In this document: positions 20,021 to 54,985 of the stretch, in pieces | How the letters are laid out: each line of letters starts with the position of its first letter | How positions within the stretch are numbered: the stretch's first letter is position 1 | From: an uncultured Candidatus Saccharibacteria bacterium | Lineage (GTDB): Bacteria; Patescibacteriota; Minisyncoccia; Phycocordibacterales; UBA6065 | Direction of reading: 5' to 3' | Assembly: GCA_964368835.1 (NCBI GenBank) | Contig: CAYJCZ010000001.1 | Span: 89,481-153,480, forward strand | DNA length: 64,000 nucleotides | Translations under genes and position numbers: made by a program | The notes under the pieces: generated by a model | What the model was told of the DNA's origin: nothing | Database searches by the model: none | Seen by the model: the letters and a program-made list of their open reading frames with translations, nothing else

Positions 20021-21163
20021 CTACTCAGAAACAGGTTCTGCGGTCTCTGCCTTTGCAACTCCAACTGGTCGAATGTCGATCTTCCAACCGGTAAGTTTTG
20101 CTGCAAGACGTACGTTTTGACCACCTTTACCGATAGCAAGTGACTGCTGATCTTCTTTTACCTCTACCGTGGCTGTTTTTGTAACTTCATCGAGAACTAT
20201 TGATGAAGGTTTAGCTGGAGAAAGTGAATCTTCGATAAACTTCTTTGGATCTGCTGACCATTCGATAATATCGATCTTTTCGTTGTTAAGTTCGCTTGTA
20301 ACAGTCGTAACTCGAACACCTCGCTGTCCAACAAGTGATCCAATAGGATCAATGTGTGAATCATGAGACATAACAGCGATTTTTGATCGTGATCCTGCCT
20401 CTCGAGCGACTGCCTTTACTTCAACAGTCTTATTTGCGATCTCAGGAGCCTCGATTTCAAAGAGTTTTTCGAGGAATTTTGGATGTGATCTAGAAAGTTT
20501 AAGGAATACGCCTCGAGGAGACTCTTCTACGCGGAAAAGGTATGCGCGAAGTCGCTCACCTTGCTTGTAGTGTTCGCTTCGGATTTGCTCTTCAAAGGGC
20601 AAAATACCCGTTGCACGGCCCATATCTACGAAAATAGTGCCTCGTTCGATTCTCTGGACGGTTCCCGAGACAATATCACCTTCACGCTTGCCGTATTCAC
20701 CCAAAACTGACACTTTTTCAGCTTCTCGGATCTTCTGAATGATGACCTGCTTTGCTGTTTGAGCTGCAATTCGGCCGAAATCATCTTTTGGTTCAAGAGG
20801 GAAGAGCATTTCCTCATCGAGTTCCACGTTTTTCTTGATCATTCGTGCTTCGTCAATCCAGATATGGTGTTCTGGGTTGTATCGAACACGTTCATCGTCA
20901 TCTGCGAGCTCAGGAAGCTCTTCTCCCTCAGGAATATCGATAACTTTTGTGTCATCTACGGCGATTTTTACCTGAAAGAACTCGGTTGCGCCTGTATTTA
21001 CGTCAAAAGTAGCTCGAACAATCTGTCCGCGCTTGCCGTACTCCTTCTTATAAGCGGTAGCTAGAGCCATTTCTATGGCTTCGAGTATCTTTTCCTTTGG
21101 AATTCCTCGTTCTTCCTCGAGCTGGCCGAGTACAGAATGAATTACTTTAAGATCAAACAACAT
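20021..21163 (-). CDS. nusA: transcription termination/antitermination factor NusA
   Basis: N-terminal NusA domain, S1 domain and two KH domains. About 380 aa. Confidence 0.9.
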   Translation of the reverse strand: MLFDLKVIHSVLGQLEEERGIPKEKILEAIEMALATAYKKEYGKRGQIVRATFDVNTGATEFFQVKIAVDDTKVIDIPEGEELPELADDDERVRYNPEHHIWIDEARMIKKNVELDEEMLFPLEPKDDFGRIAAQTAKQVIIQKIREAEKVSVLGEYGKREGDIVSGTVQRIERGTIFVDMGRATGILPFEEQIRSEHYKQGERLRAYLFRVEESPRGVFLKLSRSHPKFLEKLFEIEAPEIANKTVEVKAVAREAGSRSKIAVMSHDSHIDPIGSLVGQRGVRVTTVTSELNNEKIDIIEWSADPKKFIEDSLSPAKPSSIVLDEVTKTATVEVKEDQQSLAIGKGGQNVRLAAKLTGWKIDIRPVGVAKAETAEPVSE

Positions 21164-21340: not shown

Positions 21341-22594
21341 ATGGTATGGATGAAATCTCTTTTTGTAAAAATTCTCTTCGTTCTTTCACTCTCTGTACTT
21401 CCTCTCTTTGCATCCGCTGATGTTGGAAACGTCACTGGCTACGCATGGTCCGACAATATTGGTTGGATTAGTTTTACGTGTCTTAACACGAGCACGTGTG
21501 CAAGTAATGGTGGTAACGACTACGGTGTTACAGAAAATCCTGGTGGCAGTCTCACCGGCTACGCATGGTCAGATAATATAGGATGGGTCAAATTTGGCGG
21601 TCTCGCTAGTTTTCCATCTGGAGCGGGTACTGTTGCTCAGAACGCTCAGCTTGTTGGAGCAAATCTTGTTGGATGGGCACGAGCGTGTGCCGGAACAGCA
21701 GGAGGAGATTGTTCAAGCATGACAAGTCGAACAGACGGTTGGGATGGTTGGATTTCACTTGGAGGTACAAACTACGGTGTAACAAAAGTTGGTCAACAGT
21801 TTACGGATTATGCATGGGGCGGAGATGTAGTAGGTTGGATACTTTTTGACATACAAAATAAATTCCCAGCTGTCTGTGCTGGATGTGGAGTTATAGGTGG
21901 CGGCGGAGGAAGCAATGCGGATCTCGATGTGCGAAGTGGTGGAGCAGGTGGACCATCAATAGTAGGTAACGGTGCAGTCCTCTACGGCACTATCCCAACT
22001 TTTGTGTGGACGATCGTATCTCCGACAATGACATGCGATATCACAAAAACAGCTGGAGGCACAGCATTCACCTCTATATTAGGAGAGACCACATCAGGCT
22101 CTCGTGCCGGCAATCCTCTTAGCTCAGCTGGTCTTCATACATATCATCTTGAATGTACAAACCCTGCATATACAAAAGATGTAAGCTTTACCGTAGCGCC
22201 TCAAGTCACAGGCTTCTCAATGGGTGGAACTGAAACGGCTCGCATTCAATTCTTGGGATCAGGTCCTGCGAATTCTGAAATAAAGTCTCTATTTGTAACT
22301 CCTGGAGGTGGATTTAGTAATCCAGTTACAATTTCTATAACAGGTTTTCCTACTCCTCCTGCAGGAACCACCTTCACATATTCACTCGGAGGTAGTCCGT
22401 TTGTAGCAAATCCACCATCAGTTGTGATCAGTGATCCGTATCTCGCAGGTCAGACATTCCAGATTCGTTCATCAAGACCGATTTCAAATACATACACAAT
22501 CACTCTCACAGGTACAGCAAGCGGAGCATCAAATGTAACAAAGGACATCATTCTTGATCCTCGAGCATTTGATCCTTCATTTAATGAAATTTAA
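21341..22594 (+). CDS. secreted protein with novel Trp-rich GYAWSDNIGWI-x-F repeats
   Basis: Signal peptide, then at least four repeats: GYAWSDNIGWISF, GYAWSDNIGWVKFGG, DGWDGWISLGG, DYAWGGDVVGWILFD. C-terminal Thr/Ser/Gly-rich beta-rich region. No family recognised. Confidence 0.6.
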   Translation: MVWMKSLFVKILFVLSLSVLPLFASADVGNVTGYAWSDNIGWISFTCLNTSTCASNGGNDYGVTENPGGSLTGYAWSDNIGWVKFGGLASFPSGAGTVAQNAQLVGANLVGWARACAGTAGGDCSSMTSRTDGWDGWISLGGTNYGVTKVGQQFTDYAWGGDVVGWILFDIQNKFPAVCAGCGVIGGGGGSNADLDVRSGGAGGPSIVGNGAVLYGTIPTFVWTIVSPTMTCDITKTAGGTAFTSILGETTSGSRAGNPLSSAGLHTYHLECTNPAYTKDVSFTVAPQVTGFSMGGTETARIQFLGSGPANSEIKSLFVTPGGGFSNPVTISITGFPTPPAGTTFTYSLGGSPFVANPPSVVISDPYLAGQTFQIRSSRPISNTYTITLTGTASGASNVTKDIILDPRAFDPSFNEI

Positions 22595-22600: not shown

Positions 22601-22870
22601 ATGAAAAAGATTATTCTCATAATTGTTGTGTTGGCCGCGGTTGTCCTCCTTGTGCTATGGAAAGTATCGCAGGATAATGTAAAGCAAGAATCAACTTCAG
22701 TAGAAACTGCCCGAGCGCTCGACAGACTGGCGGCGCCGACACCGGAAGAAAAGCCTCTTACACCAGAGCAACAGGAAGCAATTCAAGGTTTATCAGCTCC
22801 TCAGACTCAGAAATCAGAGGCGCAGATGAAACAAGAAGCTGAAGCGTTACGATTATTAGAAGGAAAATAA
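22601..22870 (+). CDS. small secreted/membrane-anchored hypothetical protein
   Basis: N-terminal hydrophobic helix, Gln/Glu/Ala-rich C-terminus. Tightly packed in the operon. Confidence 0.4.
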   Translation: MKKIILIIVVLAAVVLLVLWKVSQDNVKQESTSVETARALDRLAAPTPEEKPLTPEQQEAIQGLSAPQTQKSEAQMKQEAEALRLLEGK

Positions 22871-22886
22871 AAGCACAACAAAACCC

Positions 22887-23474
22887 ATGACTCGAATTAC
22901 AACGATTACCATAGCAACACTAAGCGCACTCTCACTCACTCTCTTTCCACTTGGAGCAGGTGCGTGGACAGGTCCGTCCGCAACACCGCCAGGTGCAAAC
23001 ACTGCGGCTCCTCTTAATGTGTCTGGCAACTCTCAGGCAAAGGCAGCAGGACTTCTTCTTGCAACTTCGGCGGCTACGTACGGTCTTCTTGTGCAGAATG
23101 GAAACGTGGGTATTGGGCTTCTCAATCCAGTCTACAAGCTTGAGATTGCAGGGAGTGTAGGAGCAGGTGCTTTCTTCTATACGTCAGATCGAAATCTCAA
23201 GAAGAATATTTCTCCATTGAACGGCTCTCTTTCAAAAATTTTGAGCCTCGAAGGTGTTTCGTTTGCTTGGAAGGATACTGGAGCAAAGAGCGTGGGCCTC
23301 GTAGCGCAGGATGTTGAAAAGGTGTACCCAGAGCTTGTTCATACAAATCCTCAGAGTGGTATCAAGTCTGTTGAATACGGAAACCTTGTAGCACCACTTA
23401 TTGAAGCAATCAAAGAACAGCAGAAGCAGATTGATCAATTAAAAGCAGAGGTGAAGGCACTTAAGGGGGAATAA
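22887..23474 (+). CDS. secreted Gly/Ala-rich protein with C-terminal intramolecular-chaperone (peptidase S74-like) domain
   Basis: C-terminal SDRNLKKNI...LSLEGVSFAWKD...VGLVAQDVEKVYPELV...VEYGNLVAPLIEAIKEQQKQIDQLKAEVKALK matches the tail-fibre/endosialidase C-terminal chaperone domain pattern (SDxRxK auto-cleavage region, IAQE..PELV, LIEA.KEL, coiled tail). Confidence 0.65.
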   Translation: MTRITTITIATLSALSLTLFPLGAGAWTGPSATPPGANTAAPLNVSGNSQAKAAGLLLATSAATYGLLVQNGNVGIGLLNPVYKLEIAGSVGAGAFFYTSDRNLKKNISPLNGSLSKILSLEGVSFAWKDTGAKSVGLVAQDVEKVYPELVHTNPQSGIKSVEYGNLVAPLIEAIKEQQKQIDQLKAEVKALKGE

Positions 23475-23478
23475 ATAT

Positions 23479-23928
23479 ATGGATCCAATAATTCAAGCAA
23501 ACCCAGAGCAAAAGCAATCTCCGAAATTTGTGTTAGTTGGGATACTTTTGTTAGCTGCTGTTGGTCTTGGTGGCTACATCTATATGACACCTGGTACCTC
23601 TAAGACAGTAGAGCAAGATGGATATACCCAAAAAGAGGCAGTGGAATATGTAAAGACATCTGCAACAAATGCAGTAGCTGCAAATTCAGTTAACATCTCT
23701 GGTTGCGCACCTGATGTAAAAGTAGCTCAGGTAAATATGGGGGATGCTTTGGAATTTAATAACCCCGACAGAATTGGTCACACGATTTGGTTCAGTCCCG
23801 ATCAAACATACCTCATTCCACTTCAAAGTAAGGTAAGTATCAAGCTCAATTTTTTGAAATTTCCAGGCGTAGTTGATTATATGTGCGATTCCAAGTTTGT
23901 CGGCCAGGTTTTTATTACCAATAAATAA
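23479..23928 (+). CDS. hypothetical membrane-anchored protein
   Basis: N-terminal TM ([20 protein letters not shown]), about 125 aa extracytoplasmic domain with 2 Cys. Confidence 0.45.
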
Positions 23929-25811
23929 TGAAAGCGCTAACTATGAGAGCTTTAATACGAAAAATCGGAATAGTTTGCTTTACTGTTTTGTCACTTGTGG
24001 TGGTGCTTGGGAATAATGCTTTTGCCGCTGAGCGCTATCAAGTGGATCCTGGGCAGACGGCTATAATTGATGAATGGGGTGTTTGTTACAACGTAACAAA
24101 CAATGTTCCTAATCCACCTGTCTTTGTCCCAACTAGAACATCGGGGGAATGGAGTTCATTTTATACAAACGTACCGCCTAATGTGCAGTTGACACCATGT
24201 GTTGCTGGAATTCCTGGGTGTATGGATCCTGTGGCTACAAATTATGATCCTGCAGCAACTATAAATGTTGGATGTACATATGCACCCGGCTGCGATCCTA
24301 TTGCTGGAACCACTTGTACCTCTGGTAGCAATGTGTGCGGCCAGTACACGACAGACAGTTATGACTGTACAGGTAGTTGTCCTGCGGTCACACCGCCTGA
24401 CACAAACTGTCCTATGATTGTTGTGGGATGTACAAGTCCCGGCGCTCTAAACTATAATCCCGCAGCTAATGTGAGTGGTCTTTGTCTATGGCCAACAGGA
24501 TGTATGACTCCTGGTTATGACAATTATGATCCAGCTGCTGTGGTTCCTGATTCTTGTAATTGTAATGCTGGTAGGTCATGGAACGGTAATGCGTGTCAGG
24601 ATGATGCGCTTCCAATTGACGGAGGTTGGTCGGCTTGCAGTGTTTCTTGTGGGGGTGGAACTCGTAGCTGTGATAATCCAGCACCAGCAAACGGAGGTGC
24701 GGCTTGTACCGGTTCAACAGATTGCAACACACAGGCTTGCCCTACAGGTCCTGTAGATGGAGGTTGGTCAGGATGGGGACCTTGCTCTGCTTCTTGCGGA
24801 GGAGGAACTCAAAGCCGTTCATGTGATAACCCTGTACCTGCAAACGGAGGCGCTGCCTGTTCTGGTAGTTCATCACAAGCTTGCAACACTCAGGCGTGTT
24901 TAGCGGGATGTACAACTGAAACCTGTGGAGCAACTGCTCCTAATGGTGATGTTTGTGGTTCACCTGTTGATCCTGGATGTGGTGGCGGTCCAGTCGGACC
25001 TCGTGGATGTAGTACTGAAACTTGCGGAGCAGTAGCTCCTAATGGAGACATTTGCGGCTCACCAACTGACCCTGGATGTGGTGGCGGTCCAGCATGTGTT
25101 CCAAGTTGTGCAGGAAGGACTTGTGGGGCAACTGATAGTTGCGGCACAGGAACTTGCGGTTCACCAACTGACCCTGGATGTGGTGGCGGTCCAGCATGTG
25201 TTCCAAGTTGTGCAGGAAGGACTTGTGGGGCAACTGATAGTTGCGGCACAGGAACTTGCGGTTCACCAACTGACCCTGGATGTGGCCCAATTGGCCCTGC
25301 AGGTTGTACGACTGAGTCTTGCGGAGCAACTGCTCCCAACGGTGATATGTGTGGAGGGGTTTGTGATTCAGGTTGCCCAGCAGCAGGATCACCTGGATGT
25401 ACTGGAGCTTGTACTACAGAAACCTGCGGTGCTCAATCTCCTAACGGATCTGTCTGCGGTAGTAATTGTGATGCGGGATGTCCTGGTGCTGGTGGACCAG
25501 GTTGTGGAGGAGGCGGGGGCGGAGGAGGACCTACGTGTGACCCAACATGCGGGTGCGGAATGCACGAGGAGTTCGTTTGCGATATTATGGATTTGGAATG
25601 CACGTGCGATTCATCCCCGTCTGGATGTAGTTTAGATACTCCACCGACATCATGTTCAGCTTTTGAGTGTAATTGTAACGAATATGGCGAGTATCCTAAT
25701 TGTACTGATTGGTACGGTAATCCCGGAGGATTCAGTTGTACGGTTACGGGTTGTGGTATGAACTGTAATCTTGCCTGCACCATAGGTTCAGATCGATGTG
25801 TGCCAGATTAA
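23928..25811 (+). CDS. secreted cysteine-rich protein with two thrombospondin type-1-like repeats and tandem 34-aa Cys-rich repeats
   Basis: Signal peptide. TSP1-like [39 protein letters not shown] and [43 protein letters not shown]. Then [28 protein letters not shown] repeats. Confidence 0.7.
25081..25284 (+). repeat. perfect 102-nt tandem duplication (2 copies) inside the Cys-rich gene
   Basis: gtggcggtccagcatgtgttccaagttgtgcaggaaggacttgtggggcaactgatagttgcggcacaggaacttgcggttcaccaactgaccctggatgtg occurs twice back-to-back. It encodes identical 34-aa units, with older diverged copies flanking. Confidence 0.85.
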
Positions 25812-25844: not shown

Positions 25845-26396
25845 ATGAACAACACACTTAAGATAGTCATCGCCTTACTTCTATGTATTTGTGTTGGATA
25901 TTTTATTTATAGTAAACAGACAAAGAGTACATCGCCACAATTGAATAATAGTGGAACAACTAGCATAAATACTTATAAGTTTGCCGAAGGAAGTTTGCCA
26001 AATAATCCGAATATTAAAACCAGTGAACAGAAGTTTCTTTTTGAGAATCTTTTGAAGCGAGATTCAACATTGGAGGAAAGAAAAAAAATTCTAACTATGG
26101 CAGTAAATGCAGCCGTGGATACCAATGCGCTCGTCCTTAGCGAAAATTGCCTGTCTAATCCGCCTGTAATTAAAATGACGTACGCTTCGAAGTTAAGTGT
26201 CTCAAATACATCAAAAACTGATCAACAGATGATAATTGGTACAAGCAGTGTAATATTGCCAAAAAATTCAGTAAAGACTGTCACGCTTGAGCAGTTGGGA
26301 GTAGGGCAGCTTGCTTCTAAAGGAGTAGTGTTGAAGAGTTATGCCTGCACAGGATTAGATTATCCAGCTGGGTTCATTGTTGTATATCCAAACTAA
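25845..26396 (+). CDS. hypothetical membrane-anchored protein
   Basis: N-terminal TM, Asn/Ser/Thr-rich extracytoplasmic region. Confidence 0.45.
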   Translation: MNNTLKIVIALLLCICVGYFIYSKQTKSTSPQLNNSGTTSINTYKFAEGSLPNNPNIKTSEQKFLFENLLKRDSTLEERKKILTMAVNAAVDTNALVLSENCLSNPPVIKMTYASKLSVSNTSKTDQQMIIGTSSVILPKNSVKTVTLEQLGVGQLASKGVVLKSYACTGLDYPAGFIVVYPN

Positions 26397-27660
26397 AATT
26401 TTCAACAGGCAATTTTTTGCTTTTAGTTGCCTTTTCTTAATTGTATTAAGTGGCTTTTTTCTACGCTTTTATAGTATTGGTTCGCAGTCTTTATGGATAG
26501 ATGAAATTTATACTGTGAACGCTGCATTTTCTGTACTCGAACACGTTATCCCTCTACTTGACTCCGGTCAAATATATACAAATAATTTTGTTTCTGTATA
26601 TCTCACGGCTCTTACTATTAAGATTGCTGGGTTTGATGTATTTAATCCTTGGGCCTCAAGGTTACCGTCTGTTTTTTTTGGAACCTTACTCATCCCATTA
26701 GTGTATTTTCTTTCAAAGAAAGTATTCGAGAATGAAAAAGCTGCATTTTTTTCGGCGTTTTTAATTGCTTTTTCGTATCTTGAAATTGCATGGTCTAGGC
26801 AGGTAAGAGGATATGCTGCACTAGCTTTTTTTATAACCATAGCTTTGTATCATCTTTGGAATTATCTTTTGGAAGCAAAAACACGGAATTTGTTAATATT
26901 TTTTGTGTATTATGTACTCGCATGTCTATCTCACTGGGCTGCACTTACATTTACACCTTCATTACTATTAGTTCTCGTAATTAAAAAACAGATACCAGTT
27001 GAAAAGCTGTGGGGGAAGATATTGTTTTTTACGCTATTTGTAATACCTCCTTTGATTCTTTTAAAATTTAAGTATCCGGTTTCAGGAGGGATTTTCCTAA
27101 GGTATGCAGTCTTCCCATTTTTTCCTATCGTGAGTATTCTTTTTGGCTATATTGTTGTTAGGTTATTTGAGTACCCTTCAGTAAAAGGCAGGTTAGTTCC
27201 AAAATTAGTTTTGGCAGGTTGTGTTGCGATAATTGTTTTCATGATGCCACTTCAGCTTATTCCACTTAAGACACACGAACTTTATCTCCAGGCCCCCCAG
27301 CCAGATTTTAATAAGGTTTTTTCAATTATTCTAAATGAAAGAGAGAGTGATGATGTTGTCATCACATTGCGTCCAGTTTTGAGTCGTCTGTATTTAGGTA
27401 GCGACGGTCTATGGCTCTCGCTTAAATCAAAAAAAGTTGATGAAATTGATATGTACGTTGGAGCAAAACCACTTGTTAAATCATCCGAGTTAATGGACGT
27501 AATTAATTTTGGGAGTGGTTTTATTGTGGTGGATGGGCACTCGTTTTTCACTATTCTACTGAAAAAATATCCAGAAATTTTTGAGCATCCCAAGCTTAAA
27601 CTTAGAATGTATTCCTGTGGTGCAAAACAATTAGACTGTATCTGGCTTTACCGTTTTTAA
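26377..27660 (+). CDS. GT-C fold glycosyltransferase (PMT_2/ArnT-like, GT39/GT83 type), polytopic membrane protein
   Basis: About 11 TM helices with a first-loop DE motif (SLWIDEIYTVNAA) characteristic of PMT/ArnT-type polyprenyl-phosphate-sugar dependent transferases. Confidence 0.6.
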   Translation: MLYIQTKIFNRQFFAFSCLFLIVLSGFFLRFYSIGSQSLWIDEIYTVNAAFSVLEHVIPLLDSGQIYTNNFVSVYLTALTIKIAGFDVFNPWASRLPSVFFGTLLIPLVYFLSKKVFENEKAAFFSAFLIAFSYLEIAWSRQVRGYAALAFFITIALYHLWNYLLEAKTRNLLIFFVYYVLACLSHWAALTFTPSLLLVLVIKKQIPVEKLWGKILFFTLFVIPPLILLKFKYPVSGGIFLRYAVFPFFPIVSILFGYIVVRLFEYPSVKGRLVPKLVLAGCVAIIVFMMPLQLIPLKTHELYLQAPQPDFNKVFSIILNERESDDVVITLRPVLSRLYLGSDGLWLSLKSKKVDEIDMYVGAKPLVKSSELMDVINFGSGFIVVDGHSFFTILLKKYPEIFEHPKLKLRMYSCGAKQLDCIWLYRF

Positions 27661-27771: not shown

Positions 27772-28818
27772 ATGAAATCTACAGGCTTTGTTTCTGTTTG
27801 GTTTCCGTACGTGGCGATTTCGCTACTACTGTTTGTTGAATGTTTTTCAGCTCCGAACGTAAAGACGGCTTTTGTTCCGTCATTCGTTCCAACACCACTC
27901 GAGGACCTCACTACCACAGATCCTTCAATCCGTCGTCAGATTCCACTTCTCAGCGGTTGGGTTGTCAGAAATCAAGCTAGAATTGTTGGAAATCCACGAT
28001 TGATAATCAAGGATGGTAGTTTGGTGGGTGTCGATGTTGATTATGTTAATGATGAACCCAGTCCGATTGAGTTGGGCTACAAACGGTTTGAAACTCCTTT
28101 TGCACTCCCTTCAGACGTCTCTGAAAAGAGGGTAGAAGAGGAGGTTTGGAAGAAAATTTGCAAACAGGGTTCAGACCAGACAAGTGACTTCTTCGGCAGT
28201 TATTCCTTGGGGCTAAATTTAGTTCAAGGGGATAAGGAAAGAATTGTATACGGTATTTGGTATCTACGAAAAAATACCACCTATACTCGATACGATTCGA
28301 AGAAAAATAAGTTTGTCACATCGGCACCACAGGTTTATCTGAGAAGGATAATGGAGCTTGCTGCATTGCCAGCTCCGACGCCGTTACTGGTTACAGAGAG
28401 GCCAGATCTGCGTTTGGTGACCGAGGAGAAAGAAGTTACCCTTACCCTGACAGCGGCACATGTACCCTTCAAATTGGAGGTTGATTCCAAGTTGGCCACC
28501 GTGATGGAGCCTGTAAGGGTCGTTGCGGAGTGGTTGGATGTCCAGCCTGTTTTAAGGAATGGAAAGATCGATCAGCTTAAGATTGTTCGGGTGGCCGCAG
28601 GTACTCCTTTAGAGAAGGCTGGTGTCAGGGTTGGCCAGCAAATCCGGAGTATCCAAGGGGTGAACGTAATCGGACTGACTGAGCGAGAGTATGATCAAAA
28701 GATGATCGAAACTCCTGTAAAGGGAACATTTCAGATCGAGGTGATTGATTCCTTTGGTAAGATTACTCGTATTAATCTGATCCAGAGCCCGTCTCCACTA
28801 GCATCTGTATCTCCTTGA
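27772..28818 (+). CDS. secreted hypothetical protein with C-terminal PDZ-like segment
   Basis: Signal peptide. C-terminal IVRVAAGTPLEKAGVRVGQQIRSIQGVNV resembles a PDZ binding loop. Confidence 0.5.
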   Translation: MKSTGFVSVWFPYVAISLLLFVECFSAPNVKTAFVPSFVPTPLEDLTTTDPSIRRQIPLLSGWVVRNQARIVGNPRLIIKDGSLVGVDVDYVNDEPSPIELGYKRFETPFALPSDVSEKRVEEEVWKKICKQGSDQTSDFFGSYSLGLNLVQGDKERIVYGIWYLRKNTTYTRYDSKKNKFVTSAPQVYLRRIMELAALPAPTPLLVTERPDLRLVTEEKEVTLTLTAAHVPFKLEVDSKLATVMEPVRVVAEWLDVQPVLRNGKIDQLKIVRVAAGTPLEKAGVRVGQQIRSIQGVNVIGLTEREYDQKMIETPVKGTFQIEVIDSFGKITRINLIQSPSPLASVSP

Positions 28819-28868: not shown

Positions 28869-29122
28869 TTTCGTGAAACGAAGGAAAGATTATACAGCGC
28901 CAGAAAAAAAGGAAATAAGTTTGCAAGAAACCCAACTAAATCCTTTTTGCCTAACGAAAAGTAAGCCATAAGAAGCAGACTGCCAGATATGCTTGTGTAC
29001 CAAAAGTAGACAGGAAGTACACTTTTTTGAGCCTGTCTTGATGCAATAACCTGTATGACCCACCGTAAGGAGAAAAGCGCTACGCCTGTGAATCCGACTA
29101 TATTCCAGAAATAACTAGTCAT
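28865..29122 (-). CDS. LAB_N (lipid-A-disaccharide-synthase N-terminal like) small membrane protein
   Basis: WNIVGFTGVALFSLRWVIQVIASRQAQKSVLPVYFWYTSISGSLLLMAYF matches the about 90-aa LAB_N family usually paired with a GT2 polyprenyl-phosphate glycosyltransferase. Start moved to the internal Met. Confidence 0.6.
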   Translation of the reverse strand: MTSYFWNIVGFTGVALFSLRWVIQVIASRQAQKSVLPVYFWYTSISGSLLLMAYFSLGKKDLVGFLANLFPFFLALYNLSFVSRK

Positions 29123-29768
29123 TTTTAATTTTCGATTTAAATATATAAATATCAACTAATCCTTTAATGGTTCTATTGCTGAGATTATATTTCGTCTTCC
29201 CCGCAAATCTTTTTCTTGCCTGGATAGGGACCTCAATCAAAGTCAGACCTGCACTCTCCAAAAAACTTGGAATAAACCTGTGCATCCCTTCAAAAAGATG
29301 TAAGTGGGGAAGGTGACTCTTTCGAATAAGCTTCATTGCACCAGTATCCCGAGCGCTGTCCCGTGTAAATATACTTCTTACCCGGTTTGCGATTTTTGAG
29401 GCCGCACGATTCACGATACTCCTTTTTCTATTGATTCGATAGCCACATACAAAATCCGCCTGTAGCGAAGCCTCAAGTAATTTATGAATATCCTGGGGAT
29501 CACATTCACCATCTCCGTCCATGAGTACACATAATTCGTGACTTGCCTGATTAAGACCGTGCCAGGTCGCATGGCTTTGGCCTTTTCTCTCTGCAAAAGA
29601 GAGTAATGTAACGTTTTCCCGCTCTGAGACAATGGCCTGTGTTCGGTCTGTACTGCCATCGTTAACCACAAGTATTTCTGCTGCAGGGTGCATTTTTTCT
29701 ACCTCGTCGAGCACAAATCTAATGCTTTCTTCTTCATTGTGGACAGGGATAATAATAGAAAACTTCAT
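29115..29768 (-). CDS. GT2 family glycosyltransferase (polyprenyl-phosphate sugar synthase, DPM1/ArnC-like)
   Basis: MKFSIIIPVHNEEESI...VVNDGSTD...DGDGE GT-A DxD-type motifs. About 217 aa. Confidence 0.8.
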   Translation of the reverse strand: MKFSIIIPVHNEEESIRFVLDEVEKMHPAAEILVVNDGSTDRTQAIVSERENVTLLSFAERKGQSHATWHGLNQASHELCVLMDGDGECDPQDIHKLLEASLQADFVCGYRINRKRSIVNRAASKIANRVRSIFTRDSARDTGAMKLIRKSHLPHLHLFEGMHRFIPSFLESAGLTLIEVPIQARKRFAGKTKYNLSNRTIKGLVDIYIFKSKIKND

Positions 29769-29835: not shown

Positions 29836-30582
29836 TTACTTTGCGAGGGCTGCTTTAATCTGGCTTTCAAGGCTGTCTGCTGAGACTGCGCCGCCGAGTA
29901 CTGTATTACCCTTTGCGGTAACAATCACGCTGTAAGGCGTACCTTTTGCTCCAGCTGAGATGCCACTCTGGTACTGCGCTTCTACTTTAGCTGCATATTT
30001 GCCGCTATCAAGGCAGGTCTGGAACTTTGCTCGATCAAGACCAATATAAGCAGCGATGTTTGGAAGTTCTGATGCTTCGAGTCGGTTGTTTGTTGGGCTT
30101 ACTTCAAACAATCGGTCGATATATTTCCAGAATCCATCATTTCCACCAAGTTCTGCTGCACATTCAGATGCTTCAGCTTCTTTTCGTGCCTTTGAATGGA
30201 GAGCATCAAGAGGGAAGTGTCGATATACCCACGCAACATCAGTTCCAGCAAATTTTGCTGTGACTGTCTTGAGTGTTGAATGGAACTGCTTACAGAACGG
30301 ACATTCGAGATCAGAATATTCAACTATGACTGCTTTTGCCTTTGCGTTACCACGGATATGGTCAGCAGAGGTAACTGCTGGAACCTTGACCGCTGCTGCA
30401 GCTGTAGGAGCCGCAGCCGTAGGATTTGCAGCTACTGCTGCAGTTGTTCCTTTTACTGCCATGCCTCCAACATTGCTTAGGCCAAAATAAAGTCCTGCGC
30501 CAATAAAGAGTCCCGCGAGGGCAACTGAAAGGGGAAGCGTGAGCCAATCCCTATAATCTGATTTTTGATCAATGTGTGTCAT
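29836..30582 (-). CDS. DsbA-like thiol:disulfide oxidoreductase, membrane-anchored
   Basis: N-terminal TM, Ala-rich linker, thioredoxin-fold CPFC active site (YSDLECPFCKQFH). Confidence 0.75.
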   Translation of the reverse strand: MTHIDQKSDYRDWLTLPLSVALAGLFIGAGLYFGLSNVGGMAVKGTTAAVAANPTAAAPTAAAAVKVPAVTSADHIRGNAKAKAVIVEYSDLECPFCKQFHSTLKTVTAKFAGTDVAWVYRHFPLDALHSKARKEAEASECAAELGGNDGFWKYIDRLFEVSPTNNRLEASELPNIAAYIGLDRAKFQTCLDSGKYAAKVEAQYQSGISAGAKGTPYSVIVTAKGNTVLGGAVSADSLESQIKAALAK

Positions 30583-31165: not shown

Positions 31166-32914
31166 ATGTACATCGAAGAGCAACAACTAAAAACCTTCAT
31201 CGTTGATTCCGGTCTCGTTTCAAAAAAAGACATCGCTGATGCCGAAAAGGAAGCACGATCAAAAAAAACCGGTCTCGGTGAAATACTTGTTGTACAAGGA
31301 AAGCTATCAGAAGACGATCTTCGTAAAACCCAAGCGTATATTTTGGGAATTCCTTTCGTGGACCTCAAAGGGCAGAAGATTGATTTTACGGTTCTTTCAC
31401 TTGTTCCAGAACCAATTGCACGTAGCCACAATATAGTCGCTTTCAAGAAAACGTCTGACACGCTCGAGGTTGCCATGCTTGATACCGACGACCTTCACGC
31501 AATCGACTTTATTAAAAAGAAGGTGGGTCTGCGCATCATGCCGCGTCTGACCGATGCTGAATCAATCAAATCGGTTCTACTCCAGTATCAAAAAAGCCTC
31601 AAAGCTGAGTTCGGAGACCTTATCAAGAAGGAAACAGCTACTCTAAAGGCTCTTTCAGAGGAAATAGGGGGTAAGGCAAACGAGGGGGATCTCAAAAAGA
31701 TGGCCGAAGACCTCCCGGTTATTCGTGTCGTTGATACGCTTTTGAAGCATGCCATCATACAGGGTGCATCCGACGTTCATATTGAACCGATGGAAAAGGA
31801 GCTTTTGGTGCGATATCGAATTGACGGTCTTCTCCACGATGCTATGGTGCTCCCTAAAGAGGCAGAAACCTCCATTACGGCGCGTATCAAGGTGCTTTCG
31901 AATCTGAAGCTTGATGAGAAGCGTTTGCCTCAAGACGGGCGTTTTAAAGTCGAAATGAACGAAGAGAAAGTGTCGCTTCGTGTGTCGATTTTGCCAACAT
32001 TTTATGGTGAAAAGACAGTTATGCGACTTTTGCGAGAATCTGTTTCAGGTTTTAGTCTTGAGCACCTTGGTTTTCATGGGGAAGCGCTCGAACGTATCCA
32101 TGCAGCAACAAAGCTTGCGACGGGTATGATCCTTGCGACGGGACCTACAGGATCTGGTAAGTCTACAACCCTCTATACAGTGCTTGATATTTTGAATACA
32201 CCTGACGTAAACATCTCAACTGTTGAGGACCCGGTTGAATATCAGATGCCTCGAGTTAATCAGACCGCTGTTCGCCCAGATATCGGCTTTACATTCGCAG
32301 TGGGACTACGAACTCTCGTTCGACAAGACCCCGATATCATCATGGTGGGAGAAATTCGAGATAACGAGACTGCTGCGCTTGCCGTAAACGCTGCACTTAC
32401 TGGTCACTTGGTGCTTTCTACGCTTCACACCAACTCTGCTGCTGGTGCAATGCCACGACTTCTTGATATGAAGATCGAGCCGTTCCTTCTTGTATCGACG
32501 CTTTCGGTGGTGATTGGTCAGCGACTTGTGCGAAGACTCACCGAATCTCGAGAGCGCAGGCCTCTTACAAAAGCGGAACTCACTGCACTAGGCAAAGTAG
32601 TGGATCTTGATCGAATGCTCAGTATCTTGCGCGCAGAAAAAGCAATTGGTCCAAAAGATGAGTGGGACAAAGTTATGTTTGGAGTGCCGCGAGTGACACC
32701 CGATAACGATGGATACAAAGGGCGAGTTGGTATTCACGAAGTTTTGAAAATGTCTCCAACTATTAAGGAGCTTATTATGAAAGGGGCAACATCGGGCGCT
32801 ATAGAAGAACAAGCAAAGCGAGAGGGAATGGTTACGATGCTTGAAGACGGTATTTATAACGCTGCTCAAGGATATACGACTATCGAAGAGGTGCTTCGTG
32901 TGGTGACGGAATAA
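31166..32914 (+). CDS. pilB: type IV pilus assembly ATPase PilB (GspE family)
   Basis: N-terminal GSPII_E N-domain, Walker A LATGPTGSGKSTTLYTVL, Asp/His boxes, Walker B. About 580 aa. Confidence 0.9.
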   Translation: MYIEEQQLKTFIVDSGLVSKKDIADAEKEARSKKTGLGEILVVQGKLSEDDLRKTQAYILGIPFVDLKGQKIDFTVLSLVPEPIARSHNIVAFKKTSDTLEVAMLDTDDLHAIDFIKKKVGLRIMPRLTDAESIKSVLLQYQKSLKAEFGDLIKKETATLKALSEEIGGKANEGDLKKMAEDLPVIRVVDTLLKHAIIQGASDVHIEPMEKELLVRYRIDGLLHDAMVLPKEAETSITARIKVLSNLKLDEKRLPQDGRFKVEMNEEKVSLRVSILPTFYGEKTVMRLLRESVSGFSLEHLGFHGEALERIHAATKLATGMILATGPTGSGKSTTLYTVLDILNTPDVNISTVEDPVEYQMPRVNQTAVRPDIGFTFAVGLRTLVRQDPDIIMVGEIRDNETAALAVNAALTGHLVLSTLHTNSAAGAMPRLLDMKIEPFLLVSTLSVVIGQRLVRRLTESRERRPLTKAELTALGKVVDLDRMLSILRAEKAIGPKDEWDKVMFGVPRVTPDNDGYKGRVGIHEVLKMSPTIKELIMKGATSGAIEEQAKREGMVTMLEDGIYNAAQGYTTIEEVLRVVTE

Positions 32915-52290: not shown

Positions 52291-53505
52291 ATGCTTTTTT
52301 CATTTAAGGCAGTTCGAAAAGACGGTTCTCACTATGAAGGTACGCTCGAAGCGACTGATAAGTTTGCTTTGTATCGTGATCTTCATGCAAAAGGGGATAA
52401 CATTTTGTCTGTAAAAGAGAAATCTTCGGGAGGAAATTTAAAGAAGTTCTTCTCTATGTCATTTGGTGGGGCTAAAATGGCGGATCGTATTGCGTTTGCA
52501 AAAAATCTCGCAGCAATGCTTAAGGCGGGATTGCCTCTCGCCCGAGCGCTTACAGTGTTGGAGCGTCAGATGACGGGAAAGGTGTGGAAACCTATTTTTA
52601 AGGTATTAAATGAAAACCTAGCCAAAGGTCTCACACTCTCGCAGTCCCTTTCGATGTTTCCAAAGACGTTTTCTCCTTTGTTCGTATCTATGGTTGGGGC
52701 AGGTGAAGAGTCCGGCTCTCTTTCTCAATCATTAGGCATTGTCGGAGATCAGCTCGAAAAGTCCTACATGCTTCAAAAGAAAGTACGTGGCGCCATGATG
52801 TACCCAGCAATTATCTTGGCAATCATGCTTATAATTGCCATCCTCATGCTTGTATACGTGATTCCAAAACTCACTGCAACATTCAAGGAGTTTAATACTG
52901 AGCTTCCATTTGCGACAAAACTTATTATCGGAGCAAGCGACTTCTTTGCAAGCTACTATATCCTCATAATACTAGTGCTTATTTTACTTGTAACAGGTTT
53001 TTATGTGTTCTCAAGGACAGCGCTCGGTAAGCATGTTATTGGGTGGAGTATTTTGAGGATCCCTATCATTGGTCCAATTTCAAAAGAAGTTAACTCAGCT
53101 CGAACGGCTCGTACACTCTCATCACTTCTGTCATCAGGTGTAGAAGTTGTTACATCCATAAAGATCACATCAACAGTCGTCCAAAACGTGCATTACAGGG
53201 ATATGCTTACTGACACAGCTGAAAAAATACAGAAAGGTGCAACACTCCAGTCACTTTTTACGCCTCGTCAGGATATTTACCCATCATTTGTGTCTGAAAT
53301 GATTGGAGTGGGAGAGGAGACTGGTACTCTTTCAAAAACTCTCTTTGAGGTAGCAATTTTCTATGAGAATGAGGTTGAACAGAAGACAAAAGACATGTCA
53401 ACAATCATCGAACCATTCCTTATGGTTTTCATGGGTGTGGCCGTAGGATTCTTTGCTCTCGCCATGATCTCTCCAATTTACTCACTCTCAAATAATATCT
53501 CGTAG
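52291..53505 (+). CDS. pilC: type IV pilus assembly inner-membrane platform protein PilC (GspF family)
   Basis: Two GspF repeats each with TM helices. About 404 aa. Confidence 0.85.
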   Translation: MLFSFKAVRKDGSHYEGTLEATDKFALYRDLHAKGDNILSVKEKSSGGNLKKFFSMSFGGAKMADRIAFAKNLAAMLKAGLPLARALTVLERQMTGKVWKPIFKVLNENLAKGLTLSQSLSMFPKTFSPLFVSMVGAGEESGSLSQSLGIVGDQLEKSYMLQKKVRGAMMYPAIILAIMLIIAILMLVYVIPKLTATFKEFNTELPFATKLIIGASDFFASYYILIILVLILLVTGFYVFSRTALGKHVIGWSILRIPIIGPISKEVNSARTARTLSSLLSSGVEVVTSIKITSTVVQNVHYRDMLTDTAEKIQKGATLQSLFTPRQDIYPSFVSEMIGVGEETGTLSKTLFEVAIFYENEVEQKTKDMSTIIEPFLMVFMGVAVGFFALAMISPIYSLSNNIS

Positions 53506-53511
53506 TTCTCC

Positions 53512-53973
53512 ATGTTCGCAGCCCACATAAAAAAGTCAGCAGGGTACACGCTTTTGGAGCTCATGATAATCGTGGCAATTTCATCATTACTGGCTGGTCT
53601 GGCATACACGTCGTTTACTGCTTTTTCTCGAAATGAGGCTTTGGATGCTGGCACTGCCTCGATTGTGGCTGGTCTGCGAGATGCACGAGCACGAACTCTT
53701 GCATCAGTTGATGGTTCGCAATATGGAATCTACATAGAACAGTCAAAATACACGTTATTTAAAGGCGCACTCTATGATGCGGGTTCTAACCTCAACTCGA
53801 TTACCGACTTTAATTCATATATAAAGGCATCTTCAACACTTACGTCGATTGTGTTTCAGAGGGTGACGGGAAATACCACTGCATCTGGTACAATAGATGT
53901 ATACCTTATAACCGATCCTTCTCAGAAAAATACGATATCTGTCGCTTTAACAGGGTTAGTAGATGTAGACTAA
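53512..53973 (+). CDS. type IV pilin/pseudopilin (class III signal peptide)
   Basis: Prepilin motif KKSAG-YTLLELMIIVAI (G then x4 E, hydrophobic helix). Confidence 0.7.
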   Translation: MFAAHIKKSAGYTLLELMIIVAISSLLAGLAYTSFTAFSRNEALDAGTASIVAGLRDARARTLASVDGSQYGIYIEQSKYTLFKGALYDAGSNLNSITDFNSYIKASSTLTSIVFQRVTGNTTASGTIDVYLITDPSQKNTISVALTGLVDVD

Positions 53974-54452
53974 TGAAAAAAGCAAAAGGCTCAACATTGA
54001 CGGAGGTTGTTATCGTGGCCGGCATACTCTCAACAGTATCGCTCGCATTTTTAGGCACATTTGCAGTCATCTCGAAGTTTCATGAAAAAAATCTAAGGGC
54101 TATCAAGGCTGGCCTTTTGGCTGAAGAGGGAATGGAGGCGGTGCGAATTATTAAGGGAAGAGACTTCAATACACTTTCTACTTTAGCTCAGTCTGGACCT
54201 TCCACACCTCAGTATTTAGAGGTGTCACCATCTACATGGAACACAACCACTACTCCAGAAGTGGTCGACAATCTTTACTATAGATATTTTGTTGTAAGTC
54301 CTGCATACAGAACGGTAGATTCAGATCCGACACAATCTTCTGCCGGTAACACACTCGACCCAAACACTGTCTATGTTGATGTCACTGTTGAGTGGCTTTG
54401 GCGTAATGCAACAACATCAAATTCTTATAAGGCTTTCATGACAAACCTATGA
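53973..54452 (+). CDS. type IV pilin-like protein
   Basis: Prepilin motif AKG-STLTEVVIVAGIL. Confidence 0.7.
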   Translation: MKKAKGSTLTEVVIVAGILSTVSLAFLGTFAVISKFHEKNLRAIKAGLLAEEGMEAVRIIKGRDFNTLSTLAQSGPSTPQYLEVSPSTWNTTTTPEVVDNLYYRYFVVSPAYRTVDSDPTQSSAGNTLDPNTVYVDVTVEWLWRNATTSNSYKAFMTNL

Positions 54453-54982
54453 TTTTTCCCTTAAACAAAAATCGAAGCGGCGGATACACCCTTACCGAGA
54501 TGCTCATTACAATCGGGCTTATGACGATGCTTCTTTTGCTCATTGTCGACACTTCACTTTCAATCGCAGCGTCCCATAAGCGCGCACAAAAGTATCTTGA
54601 AATAAATGCTTCTGCCATGGGCGCTTTTTCTAGGTTCTCAAGAGATATTCGAAGAGCAACCTCTGTTGATGAGATCAATAGTGTGATTGGGGCTAGCTCA
54701 GGCAAGTTGGTTCTCAACATGAAGAAGGCAGATGGTACGGATGATGTAACCACTTTTTATCTAGACGGTGATCGTGTGAAAGAAATCTATAATGATGAGG
54801 AAAGAGGGGACATAACTCCTGGTCCGGTCAATGTGACGAATTTAACCTTTAGGTTATTCGAGGATGCTACAACTACCGCGGTTAGAGTTGAACTCACAGT
54901 GGCGCCAGATAACACTGATTTGAATATACCAGCGGTCAATTTTTATAGTACGTATGTGTTACGCGGATCTTATACTCAATAA
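54449..54982 (+). CDS. type IV pilin-like protein
   Basis: Prepilin motif RSGG-YTLTEMLITIGLM. Confidence 0.7.
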   Translation: MIFPLNKNRSGGYTLTEMLITIGLMTMLLLLIVDTSLSIAASHKRAQKYLEINASAMGAFSRFSRDIRRATSVDEINSVIGASSGKLVLNMKKADGTDDVTTFYLDGDRVKEIYNDEERGDITPGPVNVTNLTFRLFEDATTTAVRVELTVAPDNTDLNIPAVNFYSTYVLRGSYTQ

Positions 54983-54985
54983 TAT

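What the first reader, a model, noticed from the sequence alone, without database searches (positions are those of the whole stretch)
21341..22594. Secreted protein built from a previously unrecognised Trp-rich repeat (GYAWSDNIGWI-x-F)
After a signal peptide the protein has at least four copies of a 35-45 aa unit. Each copy contains two tryptophans in a near-invariant G-Y-A-W-S-D-N-I-G-W-I core (GYAWSDNIGWISF; GYAWSDNIGWVKFGG; DGWDGWISLGG; DYAWGGDVVGWILFD). A Thr/Ser/Gly-rich beta-rich tail follows. I cannot assign this repeat to any named family. The regular aromatic spacing suggests a beta-solenoid or beta-propeller with a carbohydrate- or surface-binding face.
Basis: seen in the sequence. 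Interest (0 to 1): 0.6.

Follow-up and report, generated by a model that had tools for sequence, protein, structure and literature searches.

The report
Unnamed Trp-rich surface-protein repeat domain
A secreted protein of an ultra-small (Patescibacteria/CPR) bacterium begins with a four-fold tryptophan-rich beta-hairpin repeat domain from a very large family that has no name and no match in Pfam, NCBIfam or solved structures; it is most likely the binding head of a cell-surface adhesin whose relatives often sit beside the pilus genes.

Summary
ORF 21341-22594 (+) encodes a 417-aa protein with five parts:
- a Sec signal peptide;
- a ~150-aa all-beta domain of four repeat units. Three are clearly homologous (hhalign E 1e-13 to 1e-17). 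The third is degenerate and split by an insertion;
- a Gly-rich linker;
- two Ig-like sandwiches, not an unstructured "tail";
- a 10-residue C-terminal motif, P-x-F-x-E-I.

The repeat matches nothing in Pfam-A, NCBIfam, PHROGs or PDB sequences. Its confident AlphaFold model (pTM 0.84) has no Foldseek match in PDB or BFVD.

The family is large: 5,382 50%-identity clusters. Nearly all named members are Patescibacteria, with at least two non-CPR cases. The module precedes varied passenger domains (Ig-like, fn3, PKD, CARDB, TSP1).

About 30% of related loci place the gene between nusA and pilB-pilC-pilins. A tail-fibre-like (Peptidase_S74) gene often accompanies it.

My best reading is a fibrillar-adhesin-like surface protein: a glycan-binding Trp-rich head, an Ig-like stalk and a C-terminal attachment signal. 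Confidence is about 0.4. The rivals are a self-envelope anchor and a pilus or filament subunit.

This is a new, unmodelled domain family of a familiar general kind. Interest is moderate.

The parts
21341..22594 (+). Whole CDS, 417 aa plus stop. The likely true start is ATG 21350.
   Evidence: More than 1,250 homologues, all labelled 'hypothetical'.
21341..21418 (+). Sec signal peptide (aa 1-26, ...LPLFASA|DV).
   Evidence: Read directly from the sequence. Predicted helix at 6-18. Least conserved region, 28% mean pairwise identity.
21419..21520 (+). Repeat unit 1 (aa 27-60), hairpin GYAWSDNIGWISF followed by a Cys-x5-Cys loop.
21521..21622 (+). Repeat unit 2 (aa 61-94): YGV strand plus hairpin GYAWSDNIGWVKF.
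   Evidence: U1/U2 hhalign E 2.4e-17.
21623..21772 (+). Repeat unit 3 (aa 95-144), degenerate: LVGWARA, then a ~17-aa low-confidence insertion, then DGWDGWISLGG.
   Evidence: only the second half aligns. pLDDT is 58-67 in the insertion.
21773..21868 (+). Repeat unit 4 (aa 145-176): YGVTKV strand plus hairpin DYAWGGDVVGWILF.
   Evidence: U2/U4 E 3.1e-15, U1/U4 E 2.5e-13.
21869..21916 (+). Linker (aa 177-192) with a CxxC and a Gly run.
21917..22195 (+). Ig-like beta-sandwich 1 (aa 193-285) with invariant Cys232 and Cys272.
22211..22561 (+). Ig-like beta-sandwich 2 (aa 291-407).
   Evidence: pLDDT 92-98. Foldseek hits to tandem Ig-like or FnIII adhesin and matrix proteins (PrgB, AgI/II C123, RbmA; E ~1e-6 to 1e-5).
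22562..22591 (+). C-terminal tail PRAFDPSFNEI, matching the motif P-x-phi-x-E-x-stop. Glu416 is invariant and penultimate.
22601..22870 (+). Conserved downstream partner gene: an 89-aa bitopic membrane protein.
   Evidence: Same position in orthologous loci.
22887..23474 (+). Conserved downstream partner gene: a secreted tail-fibre-like protein with a Peptidase_S74 intramolecular-chaperone domain.
   Evidence: Pfam E 4.7e-16. PHROG tail-fibre C-termini. Within 8 kb in 31 of 80 related loci.
31166..32914 (+). PilB (type IV pilus assembly ATPase). In many relatives it lies immediately downstream of the Trp-rich gene. Here it is 8.5 kb downstream.

Best explanation
The gene encodes a Sec-secreted cell-surface protein of a Paceibacteria (Patescibacteria/CPR) bacterium, laid out like a small fibrillar adhesin.

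Shown here:
- a signal peptide;
- a compact ~150-aa all-beta module made of four ~30-50-aa units. Each unit is a short 'YGV' strand followed by a beta-hairpin G-[YW]-A-W-S-x-x-x-G-W-[IV]-x-F;
- two Ig-like sandwiches;
- a short unstructured C-terminal motif, P-x-phi-x-E-x.

Inferred:
- The C-terminal motif is a sorting or attachment signal that fixes the protein to a conserved component of the cell's own envelope or pilus apparatus.
- The Ig-like domains act as a stalk.
- The distal Trp-rich module is the ligand-binding head. It most likely recognises a glycan, such as a cell-wall or surface polysaccharide of a partner cell. Binding would use stacked aromatic side chains plus Asn/Asp/Ser/Thr hydrogen bonding, as lectins and cell-wall-binding repeats do.

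The module is a mobile domain. It is reused on many proteins with different stalks, and sometimes repeated as a whole.
For: Architecture:
- The signal peptide is read from the sequence. The domains come from AlphaFold models: full length pLDDT 87.4, N-domain alone pLDDT 87.6 and pTM 0.84.
- The C-terminal half matches tandem Ig-like stalks of Gram-positive adhesins and matrix proteins.

Module behaviour:
- The same N-domain (55-65% identity) precedes unrelated domains, including fn3, CARDB, TSP1, PKD, LamG-like and Pur_ac_phosph_N.
- It is N-terminal in 67 of 80 related ORFs.
- It is duplicated as a whole four-unit module in some proteins.

Composition of the 150-aa module: 9 Trp, 5 Tyr, 6 Phe, 28 Gly and 46 Asn/Asp/Ser/Thr, but only 6 Lys/Arg/Glu. 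This is typical of sugar-binding beta domains (established knowledge, not tested here).

The tail behaves like a separate terminal signal:
- The strict motif is at the very C-terminus in 43 of 80 N-domain ORFs versus 10 of 923 other ORFs (Fisher p 1.5e-43).
- Those 10 are neighbouring signal-peptide proteins without the N-domain.
- In remoter CPR relatives the same motif is followed by x-P-x, or by PP plus an ~18-24-aa amphipathic hydrophobic segment. That layout recalls motif-plus-anchor sorting signals.

Context:
- The gene is co-directional with, and 0.8-5.8 kb upstream of, pilB-pilC-pilins in 15 of 51 loci that have enough flank.
- It lies next to tail-fibre-like secreted proteins in 31 of 80 loci.

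Non-CPR relatives lie next to Lcl_C adhesin-domain genes.
Against: - There are no binding data, and no lectin or CBM matches by sequence or by fold.
- The head is the most conserved part of the protein: 61% mean pairwise identity versus 41-46% for the Ig-like domains. That fits a conserved self-ligand at least as well as a host ligand.
- The function of the tail is unknown, and no known sorting-signal model hits it.
- 12 of 80 N-domain ORFs lack the penultimate Glu, and in 13 of 80 the module is internal.
- I could not inspect model coordinates, so no binding face was identified.
- Synteny with the pilus genes also includes unrelated housekeeping neighbours (nusA, ppa, tig), so adjacency alone is weak evidence of functional linkage.
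Confidence: 0.4

Rival explanations
1. The Trp-rich module is a non-covalent anchor to the cell's own envelope (peptidoglycan, a secondary wall polymer or an S-layer). It would play the role that SLH, CWB2, choline-binding or GW modules play in Gram-positive bacteria. The variable C-terminal domains would be the displayed passengers.
For: - One conserved module is shared by many proteins with different passenger domains. This is the pattern of the SLH and CWB2 protein families (established knowledge).
- It is the most conserved region of the protein, as expected for a ligand that does not vary between lineages.
- It has aromatic Gly-Trp hairpin repeats, as in choline-binding and GW modules.
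- An S-layer protein, SbsC, is among the fold matches of the C-terminal half.
Against: - The proteins also carry a second conserved terminal element, the C-terminal motif. In some relatives this has a hydrophobic extension and looks like the anchor. Two anchors are not needed.
- There is no sequence or fold similarity to any known wall-binding module.
- In multi-repeat relatives the modules form most of a large protein, which is unusual for an anchor.
Confidence: 0.2
2. The protein is a subunit or tip adhesin of a surface filament. Either it is carried by the type IV pilus encoded next to it in many genomes (a PilY1-like role), or it is assembled head-to-tail by strand complementation. In the second case the C-terminal motif of alternating hydrophobic residues would be the donated strand, as in the recently described CPR Pam pili.
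For: - In about 30% of related loci it is the first gene upstream of pilB-pilC-pilins.
- The tail consensus V-x-V-x-P-x-phi-x-E-phi has beta-strand periodicity. It is shared by neighbouring secreted proteins without the N-domain.
- Large minor-pilin-like proteins of the pilus cluster end in W-x-E-x (window 59250-60662 '...SWREL').
- There is precedent: Pam pili are Sec-secreted Ig-like proteins joined by donor-strand exchange, with a co-localised tail-fibre-like gene (bioRxiv 10.64898/2026.03.03.709456).
- RbmA, the fold of PamR, is among the fold hits for the C-terminal half.
Against: - No NCBIfam Pam model or pilin model hits the protein at E<=1.
- Both Ig-like domains are predicted complete, with 7 and ~11 strand segments. 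No truncated acceptor domain is evident, and the tail is not docked in the monomer model (pLDDT ~62).
- There is no prepilin signal.
- No PapD-like chaperone was found among the neighbours scanned.
- Pam pili are reported in Saccharimonadia and Microgenomatia, not Paceibacteria.
- In this genome the gene is separated from pilB by 8.5 kb and from pilC and the pilins by 30 kb.
Confidence: 0.2
3. The repeat is a chance or low-complexity pattern, or the ORF is not a real gene.
For: None found.
Against: - There are 5,382 cluster representatives with E<=1e-3 and 2,439 with E<=1e-10.
- Repeat-core residues are invariant across 55 orthologues.
- No motif matches occur in 200 shuffles.
- The structure prediction is confident.
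Confidence: 0.01

Closest known systems
Choline-binding / cell-wall-binding repeats (Pfam CW_binding_1; LytA, CbpA, clostridial toxin CROPs, glucan-binding YG repeats)
   Same: Extracellular tandem beta-hairpin repeats with conserved Gly and aromatic residues (G-W ... aromatic-x-aromatic). They occur on secreted proteins of monoderm bacteria and bind non-protein surface ligands.
   Different: - No HMM match at E<=1.
- The unit is 30-50 aa with three strands, not ~20 aa.
- The units form a closed four-unit module of ~150 aa rather than an open superhelix.
- No Foldseek match to any such structure.
Fibrillar adhesins of Gram-positive bacteria (N-terminal adhesive domain, Ig-like/fn3/PKD stalk, C-terminal anchor; e.g. 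AgI/II, PrgB; survey in PMC9210967)
   Same: Order of parts: signal peptide, distinct N-terminal domain, tandem Ig-like domains, conserved C-terminal signal. The fold hits of the C-terminal half are to such stalks.
   Different: - The head is not any catalogued adhesive domain.
- The stalk is only two domains.
- The C-terminal signal is not LPXTG or any modelled sorting signal, and in this protein it has no membrane segment.
SLH and CWB2 surface-protein families (B. anthracis BSLs, C. difficile Cwps)
   Same: One conserved repeat module (3-4 units) is shared by many secreted proteins with diverse other domains.
   Different: No sequence or fold similarity. Wall binding was not tested.
Pam pili of CPR bacteria (PamA/B/E/T/R; bioRxiv 10.64898/2026.03.03.709456)
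   Same: CPR-specific, Sec-secreted, Ig-like-domain surface proteins with disulfides and a co-localised tail-fibre-like gene. A terminal or linker strand motif is the most conserved element.
   Different: - No hit to any NCBIfam model, the Pam models included.
[quoted passage not shown]
- Different CPR classes.
- No chaperone gene was seen among the neighbours scanned.
PilY1/PilC type IV pilus tip adhesins
   Same: A Sec-secreted beta-rich protein encoded with type IV pilus genes in many genomes.
   Different: No Pfam PilY1/PilC match. The protein is much smaller, the fold differs, and in this window it is not adjacent to the pilins.
Beta-propeller fucose lectins (AFL/FleA, Photorhabdus PHL/PLL)
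   Same: They are the top-ranked, though non-significant, Foldseek hits. They are Trp-rich repeated beta units that bind sugars.
   Different: E >= 1 and TM 0.14-0.16, with six or seven four-stranded blades versus four three-stranded units. This is not a match.

Membership tests
Choline-binding / CW_binding_1 repeats | Match to the ~20-aa repeat HMM (PF01473) | tested here: not met
   No Pfam hit at E<=1 for the window protein or for 6 multi-repeat relatives, and none at E<=0.01 for 78 relatives.
Choline-binding / CW_binding_1 repeats | Open beta-hairpin superhelix (solenoid) fold as in LytA, CbpA and toxin CROPs | tested here: not met
   Foldseek of the N-domain model against PDB gives best E = 1.0, and none of the listed hits is such a structure. 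The model is a closed domain with pTM 0.84. Coordinates could not be inspected.
SLH / CWB2 envelope-anchoring modules | HMM match to PF00395 or PF04122 | tested here: not met
SLH / CWB2 envelope-anchoring modules | Binding to a secondary cell-wall polymer or peptidoglycan | not testable with these tools
   Needs binding assays with the recombinant domain.
Fibrillar adhesins | Signal peptide plus a stalk of tandem Ig-like, fn3 or PKD domains | tested here: met
   Signal peptide read from the sequence. Two Ig-like sandwiches. Relatives carry fn3, PKD and CARDB.
Fibrillar adhesins | A recognised adhesive domain and a recognised anchor (LPXTG, T9SS CTD and similar) | tested here: not met
   No Pfam or NCBIfam model hits on the head or the tail.
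Pam pilins (CPR donor-strand pili) | Hit to NCBIfam CPR_pilus Pam models | tested here: not met
   0 NCBIfam families at E<=1 for the window protein. The only Pam hit was a non-significant one (E 0.13) of PamR to a distant relative.
Pam pilins (CPR donor-strand pili) | Nine-strand NTD sandwich, linker donor strand and truncated Ig-like CTD; PapD-like chaperones in the operon | tested here: not met
   DSSP of the model shows two complete sandwiches after the Trp-rich module. No chaperone-like family was found in neighbours 22601-25811. The judgement rests on secondary structure only.
PilY1/PilC type IV pilus adhesins | PilY1/PilC beta-propeller domain (PF05567) | tested here: not met
PilY1/PilC type IV pilus adhesins | Encoded within the pilus or minor-pilin gene cluster | tested here: inconclusive
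   pilB is co-directional downstream in 15 of 51 related loci. In this window pilB is 8.5 kb away and the pilins are 30 kb away.
Beta-propeller lectins (AFL, PHL/PLL) | Structural superposition on a 6-7-bladed propeller | tested here: not met
   E >= 1 and TMq 0.14-0.16.

The most novel reading that the evidence does not exclude
The four-unit Trp-rich module is a new protein fold. Together with the C-terminal L-P-x-[FWY]-x-E-[VI] motif it marks a previously undescribed CPR surface-display or filament-assembly system. In this reading the tail is a new sorting or donor-strand signal, shared by co-encoded secreted proteins and ancestrally linked to the type IV pilus locus. Its partner, possibly the Trp-rich module itself, assembles these proteins on the cell surface for host contact.
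Probability: 0.15. Interest if true: 0.75.

Novelty: new variant of a known kind. Interest (0 to 1): 0.45.

Why it matters
Patescibacteria/CPR make up a large share of bacterial diversity. They live attached to other cells, and most of their surface proteins are annotated 'hypothetical'.

This module defines at least 5,382 protein clusters. It is the best-conserved part of a family of secreted proteins that often sits at the head of the type IV pilus locus, so it is a strong candidate for a cell-contact or host-recognition element.

A family model would annotate thousands of proteins at once. The confident but unmatched structure model may be a new fold.

The accompanying C-terminal motif may be a new sorting or assembly signal in bacteria that lack an outer membrane. 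Both ideas are directly testable with recombinant protein and multimer modelling.

Tried and rejected
Searches that found nothing for the repeat:
- Pfam-A, NCBIfam and PHROGs scans of the window protein, of 78 relatives, and of multi-repeat and long-tail relatives.
- Profile searches of PDB sequences with the full-length alignment, which gave 0 hits at E<=10.
- The same search with a 29-position unit profile, which gave only chance hits such as an antibody CDR at E 0.07.
- Foldseek of the N-domain model against PDB (best E 1.0) and against BFVD viral structures (best E 1.1).
- Literature search for the motif strings and for Trp-rich repeats in Patescibacteria.

Ideas considered and dropped:
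- WW/SH3-like proline-peptide binding by the Trp-rich module. Nothing supports it, and the tail is not docked in the monomer model.
- Recognition of the tail by the PDZ protein at 27772-28818. That protein is not co-conserved in any related locus.
- Cleavage right after the invariant Glu. This is weakened because one large subfamily has Arg at that position (LPEFRRVIPR).
- A classical transmembrane anchor after the motif. The extensions are only amphipathic, with mean Kyte-Doolittle 0.3-1.1.
- Restriction of the repeat to CPR. This is rejected: two relatives lie on high-GC non-CPR contigs.
Full report
**1. What is in the sequence**

It is transcribed divergently from nusA (20021-21163, minus strand). 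Homologues begin 'MK...', so the real start is probably the ATG at 21350.

The N-terminus is a standard Sec signal peptide: basic residues, a hydrophobic core, then ASA|D.

GYAWSDNIGW occurs at aa 33-42 and 73-82. DYAWGGDVVGWILFD lies at 156-170. A fourth copy is split into LVGWARA (109-115) and DGWDGWISLGG (132-142).

A relaxed form of the motif occurs nowhere else in the six reading frames of the 64-kb window. It also occurs in none of 200 shuffles.

Nine of the protein's eleven tryptophans are in this region.

**2. The repeat is real, and it is a closed four-unit module**

I cut the N-terminal region of a 78-sequence alignment into four units and compared them profile against profile.
- Units 1 (aa 27-60), 2 (61-94) and 4 (145-176) are mutually homologous at 98-99% probability, E 1e-13 to 1e-17.
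- Unit 3 (95-144) aligns only through its second half (E about 1e-3 to 1e-4). It is best read as a degenerate copy interrupted by a variable insertion.

Each unit is a short 'YGV' strand followed by a hairpin G-[YW]-A-W-S-x-x-x-G-W-[IV]-x-F.

In 55 orthologues of 40-87% identity, all 19 invariant residues of this region are the Gly, Trp, Ala, Ser, Phe, Pro and Asp of the unit cores.

AlphaFold2 predicts the region alone (aa 27-185) as a compact all-beta domain: mean pLDDT 87.6, pTM 0.84. It has twelve main strands in four groups of three. Only the unit-3 insertion has low confidence.

In remoter relatives the four-unit module is duplicated as a whole. P0172, P0133, P0300 and P0310 show motif spacings of about 34, 42 and 30 aa, repeated twice. 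In other relatives the units form arrays of at least 11 hairpins, as in P0131.

**3. The rest of the protein**

The 'Thr/Ser/Gly-rich tail' of the finding is two Ig-like beta-sandwiches, at aa ~193-285 and ~291-407. The first carries the invariant Cys232 and Cys272. Both are predicted at pLDDT mostly above 90.

Foldseek of the full-length model against PDB returns tandem Ig-like or FnIII stalks of surface proteins at E 1e-6 to 1e-4. Examples are PrgB, antigen I/II C123 domains, RbmA, an S-layer SbsC fragment and titin.

The last ten residues are unstructured (pLDDT about 62) but conserved. Glu416, the penultimate residue, is invariant.

**4. No named family and no solved relative**

- Pfam-A (2025 copy) gives no hit at E<=1 for the protein. 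It gives no hit over the repeat region in any of 78 relatives (E<=0.01) or 6 multi-repeat relatives (E<=1). Only the passenger domains hit: fn3, CARDB, TSP1, PKD, Ig_Rha78A_N, Pur_ac_phosph_N and Lcl_C.
- NCBIfam release 20 (June 2026) and PHROGs give nothing.
- Profile searches of all PDB sequences give nothing with the full-length alignment and only chance hits with a unit profile.
- Foldseek of the confident N-domain model finds nothing significant in PDB or in BFVD. The best PDB result is E 1.0. The nominal top hits are propeller lectins at TM 0.14-0.16 and TbpB/HpuA or avidin-like barrels at TM 0.28-0.37. The best BFVD result is E 1.1.
- The motif strings do not occur in the paper library.

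**5. Size and spread of the family**

- A phmmer search with the 159-aa domain against 1.84 billion cluster representatives finds 5,382 proteins at E<=1e-3 and 2,439 at E<=1e-10.
- Wherever a source names the organism among close relatives, it is Patescibacteria. Named groups include Paceibacterota/Parcubacteria, Taylor-, Nomura-, Kaiser-, Yonath-, Vogel-, Sungii-, Nealson-, Falkow- and Terrybacteria, and Minisyncoccia. NCBI labels members 'hypothetical' or, from the passenger domain only, 'PKD domain-containing protein'.
- The repeat is not strictly CPR-specific. P0310 lies in a Desulfuromonadales MAG (locus GC 55%, near an exosortase gene). P0300 lies on an 826-kb contig (locus GC 61%, with a C-terminal membrane anchor). 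Each carries two modules, and each sits directly downstream of an Lcl_C-domain gene.
- All members examined have N-terminal signal or hydrophobic segments and extracellular-type domains.

**6. Genomic context**

Orthologous loci keep the triad of Trp-rich protein, ~90-aa bitopic membrane protein and tail-fibre-like protein with a Peptidase_S74 chaperone domain.

I surveyed 80 species-representative loci with up to 8-kb flanks.
- nusA lies divergently upstream in 21 of 68 loci with enough flank.
- pilB lies co-directionally 0.8-5.8 kb downstream in 15 of 51, usually followed by pilC and pilins.
- The S74-type gene is present in 31 of 80.

The ancestral layout in Paceibacteria therefore appears to be: nusA | Trp-rich gene (with or without other secreted proteins) | pilB pilC pilins.

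In this window the cluster is broken up. pilB is at 31166-32914, and pilC and the pilins are at 52291-60662.

Housekeeping genes (nusA, ppa, tig) share the same synteny. Adjacency alone is therefore only moderate evidence of a functional link to the pilus.

**7. The C-terminal motif**

This is the most unexpected result. A penultimate Glu is present in 68 of 80 N-domain ORFs against 62 of 923 other ORFs in the same loci.

The strict pattern P-x-phi-x-E-x-stop is present in 43 of 80 against 10 of 923, with odds ratio 106 and Fisher p 1.5e-43. All ten exceptions are signal-peptide proteins encoded next to N-domain genes but lacking the N-domain.

The motif is independent of the domain that precedes it.

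In the wider CPR repeat family the same motif, L-P-x-[FWY]-x-[ER]-[VI], takes three forms:
- it is the very end of the protein (105 of 118 close relatives);
- it is followed by 1-5 residues, typically x-P-x (54 of 118 multi-repeat relatives);
- it is followed by PP plus an 18-24-aa amphipathic hydrophobic segment (19 of 118).

No known sorting-signal model matches it. This behaviour is what one expects of a sorting, attachment or donated-strand signal. Its partner is unknown.

**8. How it most likely works**

Secretion, domain order and module mobility are shown here. The rest is inference.

With a likely attachment signal at the C-terminus and Ig-like domains in the middle, the layout is that of a small fibrillar adhesin, with the Trp-rich module as the distal binding head.

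The module's composition fits glycan recognition: 20 aromatic residues, 28 Gly and 46 Asn/Asp/Ser/Thr, but only 6 Lys/Arg/Glu in 150 aa. So does its association with adhesin-type domains, in CPR and next to Lcl_C genes outside CPR. I give this reading about 0.4.

The main counter-argument is conservation. The head is the most conserved part of the protein, at 61% identity against 41-46% for the Ig-like domains. That equally suits a self-ligand.

Two rivals follow from this.
- The module could be a wall or S-layer anchor, in the manner of SLH, CWB2 or choline-binding modules (0.2).
- The protein could be a pilus-associated or strand-exchange filament subunit, with the tail as the joining element (0.2). 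The second rival has a recent precedent in the Pam pili of CPR bacteria. Those are Sec-secreted Ig-like proteins joined by donor-strand exchange, with a co-localised tail-fibre-like gene (bioRxiv 10.64898/2026.03.03.709456). However, this protein hits no Pam model. Its domain plan differs, and both of its sandwiches look complete. It also comes from a different CPR class.

**9. Novelty and verdict**

The repeat is unnamed in Pfam, NCBIfam and PHROGs and absent from solved structures.

It is not a new kind of biological system. Aromatic beta-hairpin repeat modules on secreted adhesin-like proteins are familiar. It is, however, a large and well-defined domain family, unmodelled and possibly a new fold. 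It is coupled to an uncharacterised C-terminal signal, in a lineage whose surface biology is largely unknown.

I rate it a new variant of a known kind, with interest 0.45. There is a roughly 0.15 chance that the module and tail together define a new CPR surface-assembly system, which would deserve about 0.75.

Noticed in passing
window 22562-22591, and loci L003 6124-7920, L022 5626-7827, L011 4515-5996: There is a conserved C-terminal motif P-x-phi-x-E-x-stop (here DPSFNEI). It is shared by Trp-rich proteins and by neighbouring secreted proteins that lack the Trp-rich domain. Remoter CPR relatives extend it by x-P-x, or by PP plus an amphipathic hydrophobic segment. No known sorting-signal model matches.
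   Followed up: partly
window 22887-23474 (+): A 195-aa secreted protein has only ~70 mature residues before a Peptidase_S74 intramolecular-chaperone domain (Pfam E 4.7e-16; PHROG tail-fibre C-termini). It co-occurs with the Trp-rich gene in 31 of 80 related loci. The Pam-pilus preprint also reports a co-localised tail-fibre-like gene.
   Followed up: partly
window 22601-22870 (+): An 89-aa bitopic membrane protein is conserved directly downstream of orthologues. It has weak, sub-threshold NCBIfam similarity to IcmG/DotF (E 6.6e-4) and GspB (E 6.9e-3).
   Followed up: no
window 23928-25811 (+): A 627-aa secreted Cys/Gly-rich protein carries two thrombospondin type-1 repeats (PF00090, E 8.6e-8) and reiterated [13 protein letters not shown]-like units. 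GC content and GC skew rise locally. TSP1 is also found fused to the Trp-rich module in other genomes (P0106).
   Followed up: no
window 31166-32914 and 52291-60662: The type IV pilus genes are split in this genome. pilB is separated by ~19 kb from pilC, three small pilins, a PilX-like pilin with a CarboxypepD_reg domain, and two large proteins. Protein 54986-56767 has a GspK-like N-terminus and a choice-of-anchor R domain. 59250-60662 ends ...SWREL and 54986-56767 ends ...SWKETE. The W-x-E-x ending of 59250-60662 recurs in apparent counterparts in loci L039, L048 and L065.
   Followed up: partly
window 21341 vs 21350: The listed ORF starts MVWMK, but homologues start at MK, so ATG 21350 is the probable start.
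   Followed up: partly
L088 6001-7713 and L089 6001-7425: Non-CPR relatives of the repeat (locus GC 61% and 55%) each carry two four-unit modules. Each lies immediately downstream of an Lcl_C (PF07603) domain gene. Lcl_C is also fused to the repeat in P0121 and P0294.
   Followed up: partly
window 26377-27660, 29115-29768, 29836-30582: A PMT-family (dolichyl-phosphate-mannose-type) glycosyltransferase, a GT2 glycosyltransferase and a DsbA-like thioredoxin lie between the secreted-protein cluster and pilB. They may act in maturation (glycosylation, disulfide formation) of these Cys-containing surface proteins.
   Followed up: no
paper PMC10936435: Highly expressed secreted proteins with Ig-like and PKD domains are reported in archaea-attached Paceibacteria. 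I did not check whether they carry the Trp-rich module.
   Followed up: no
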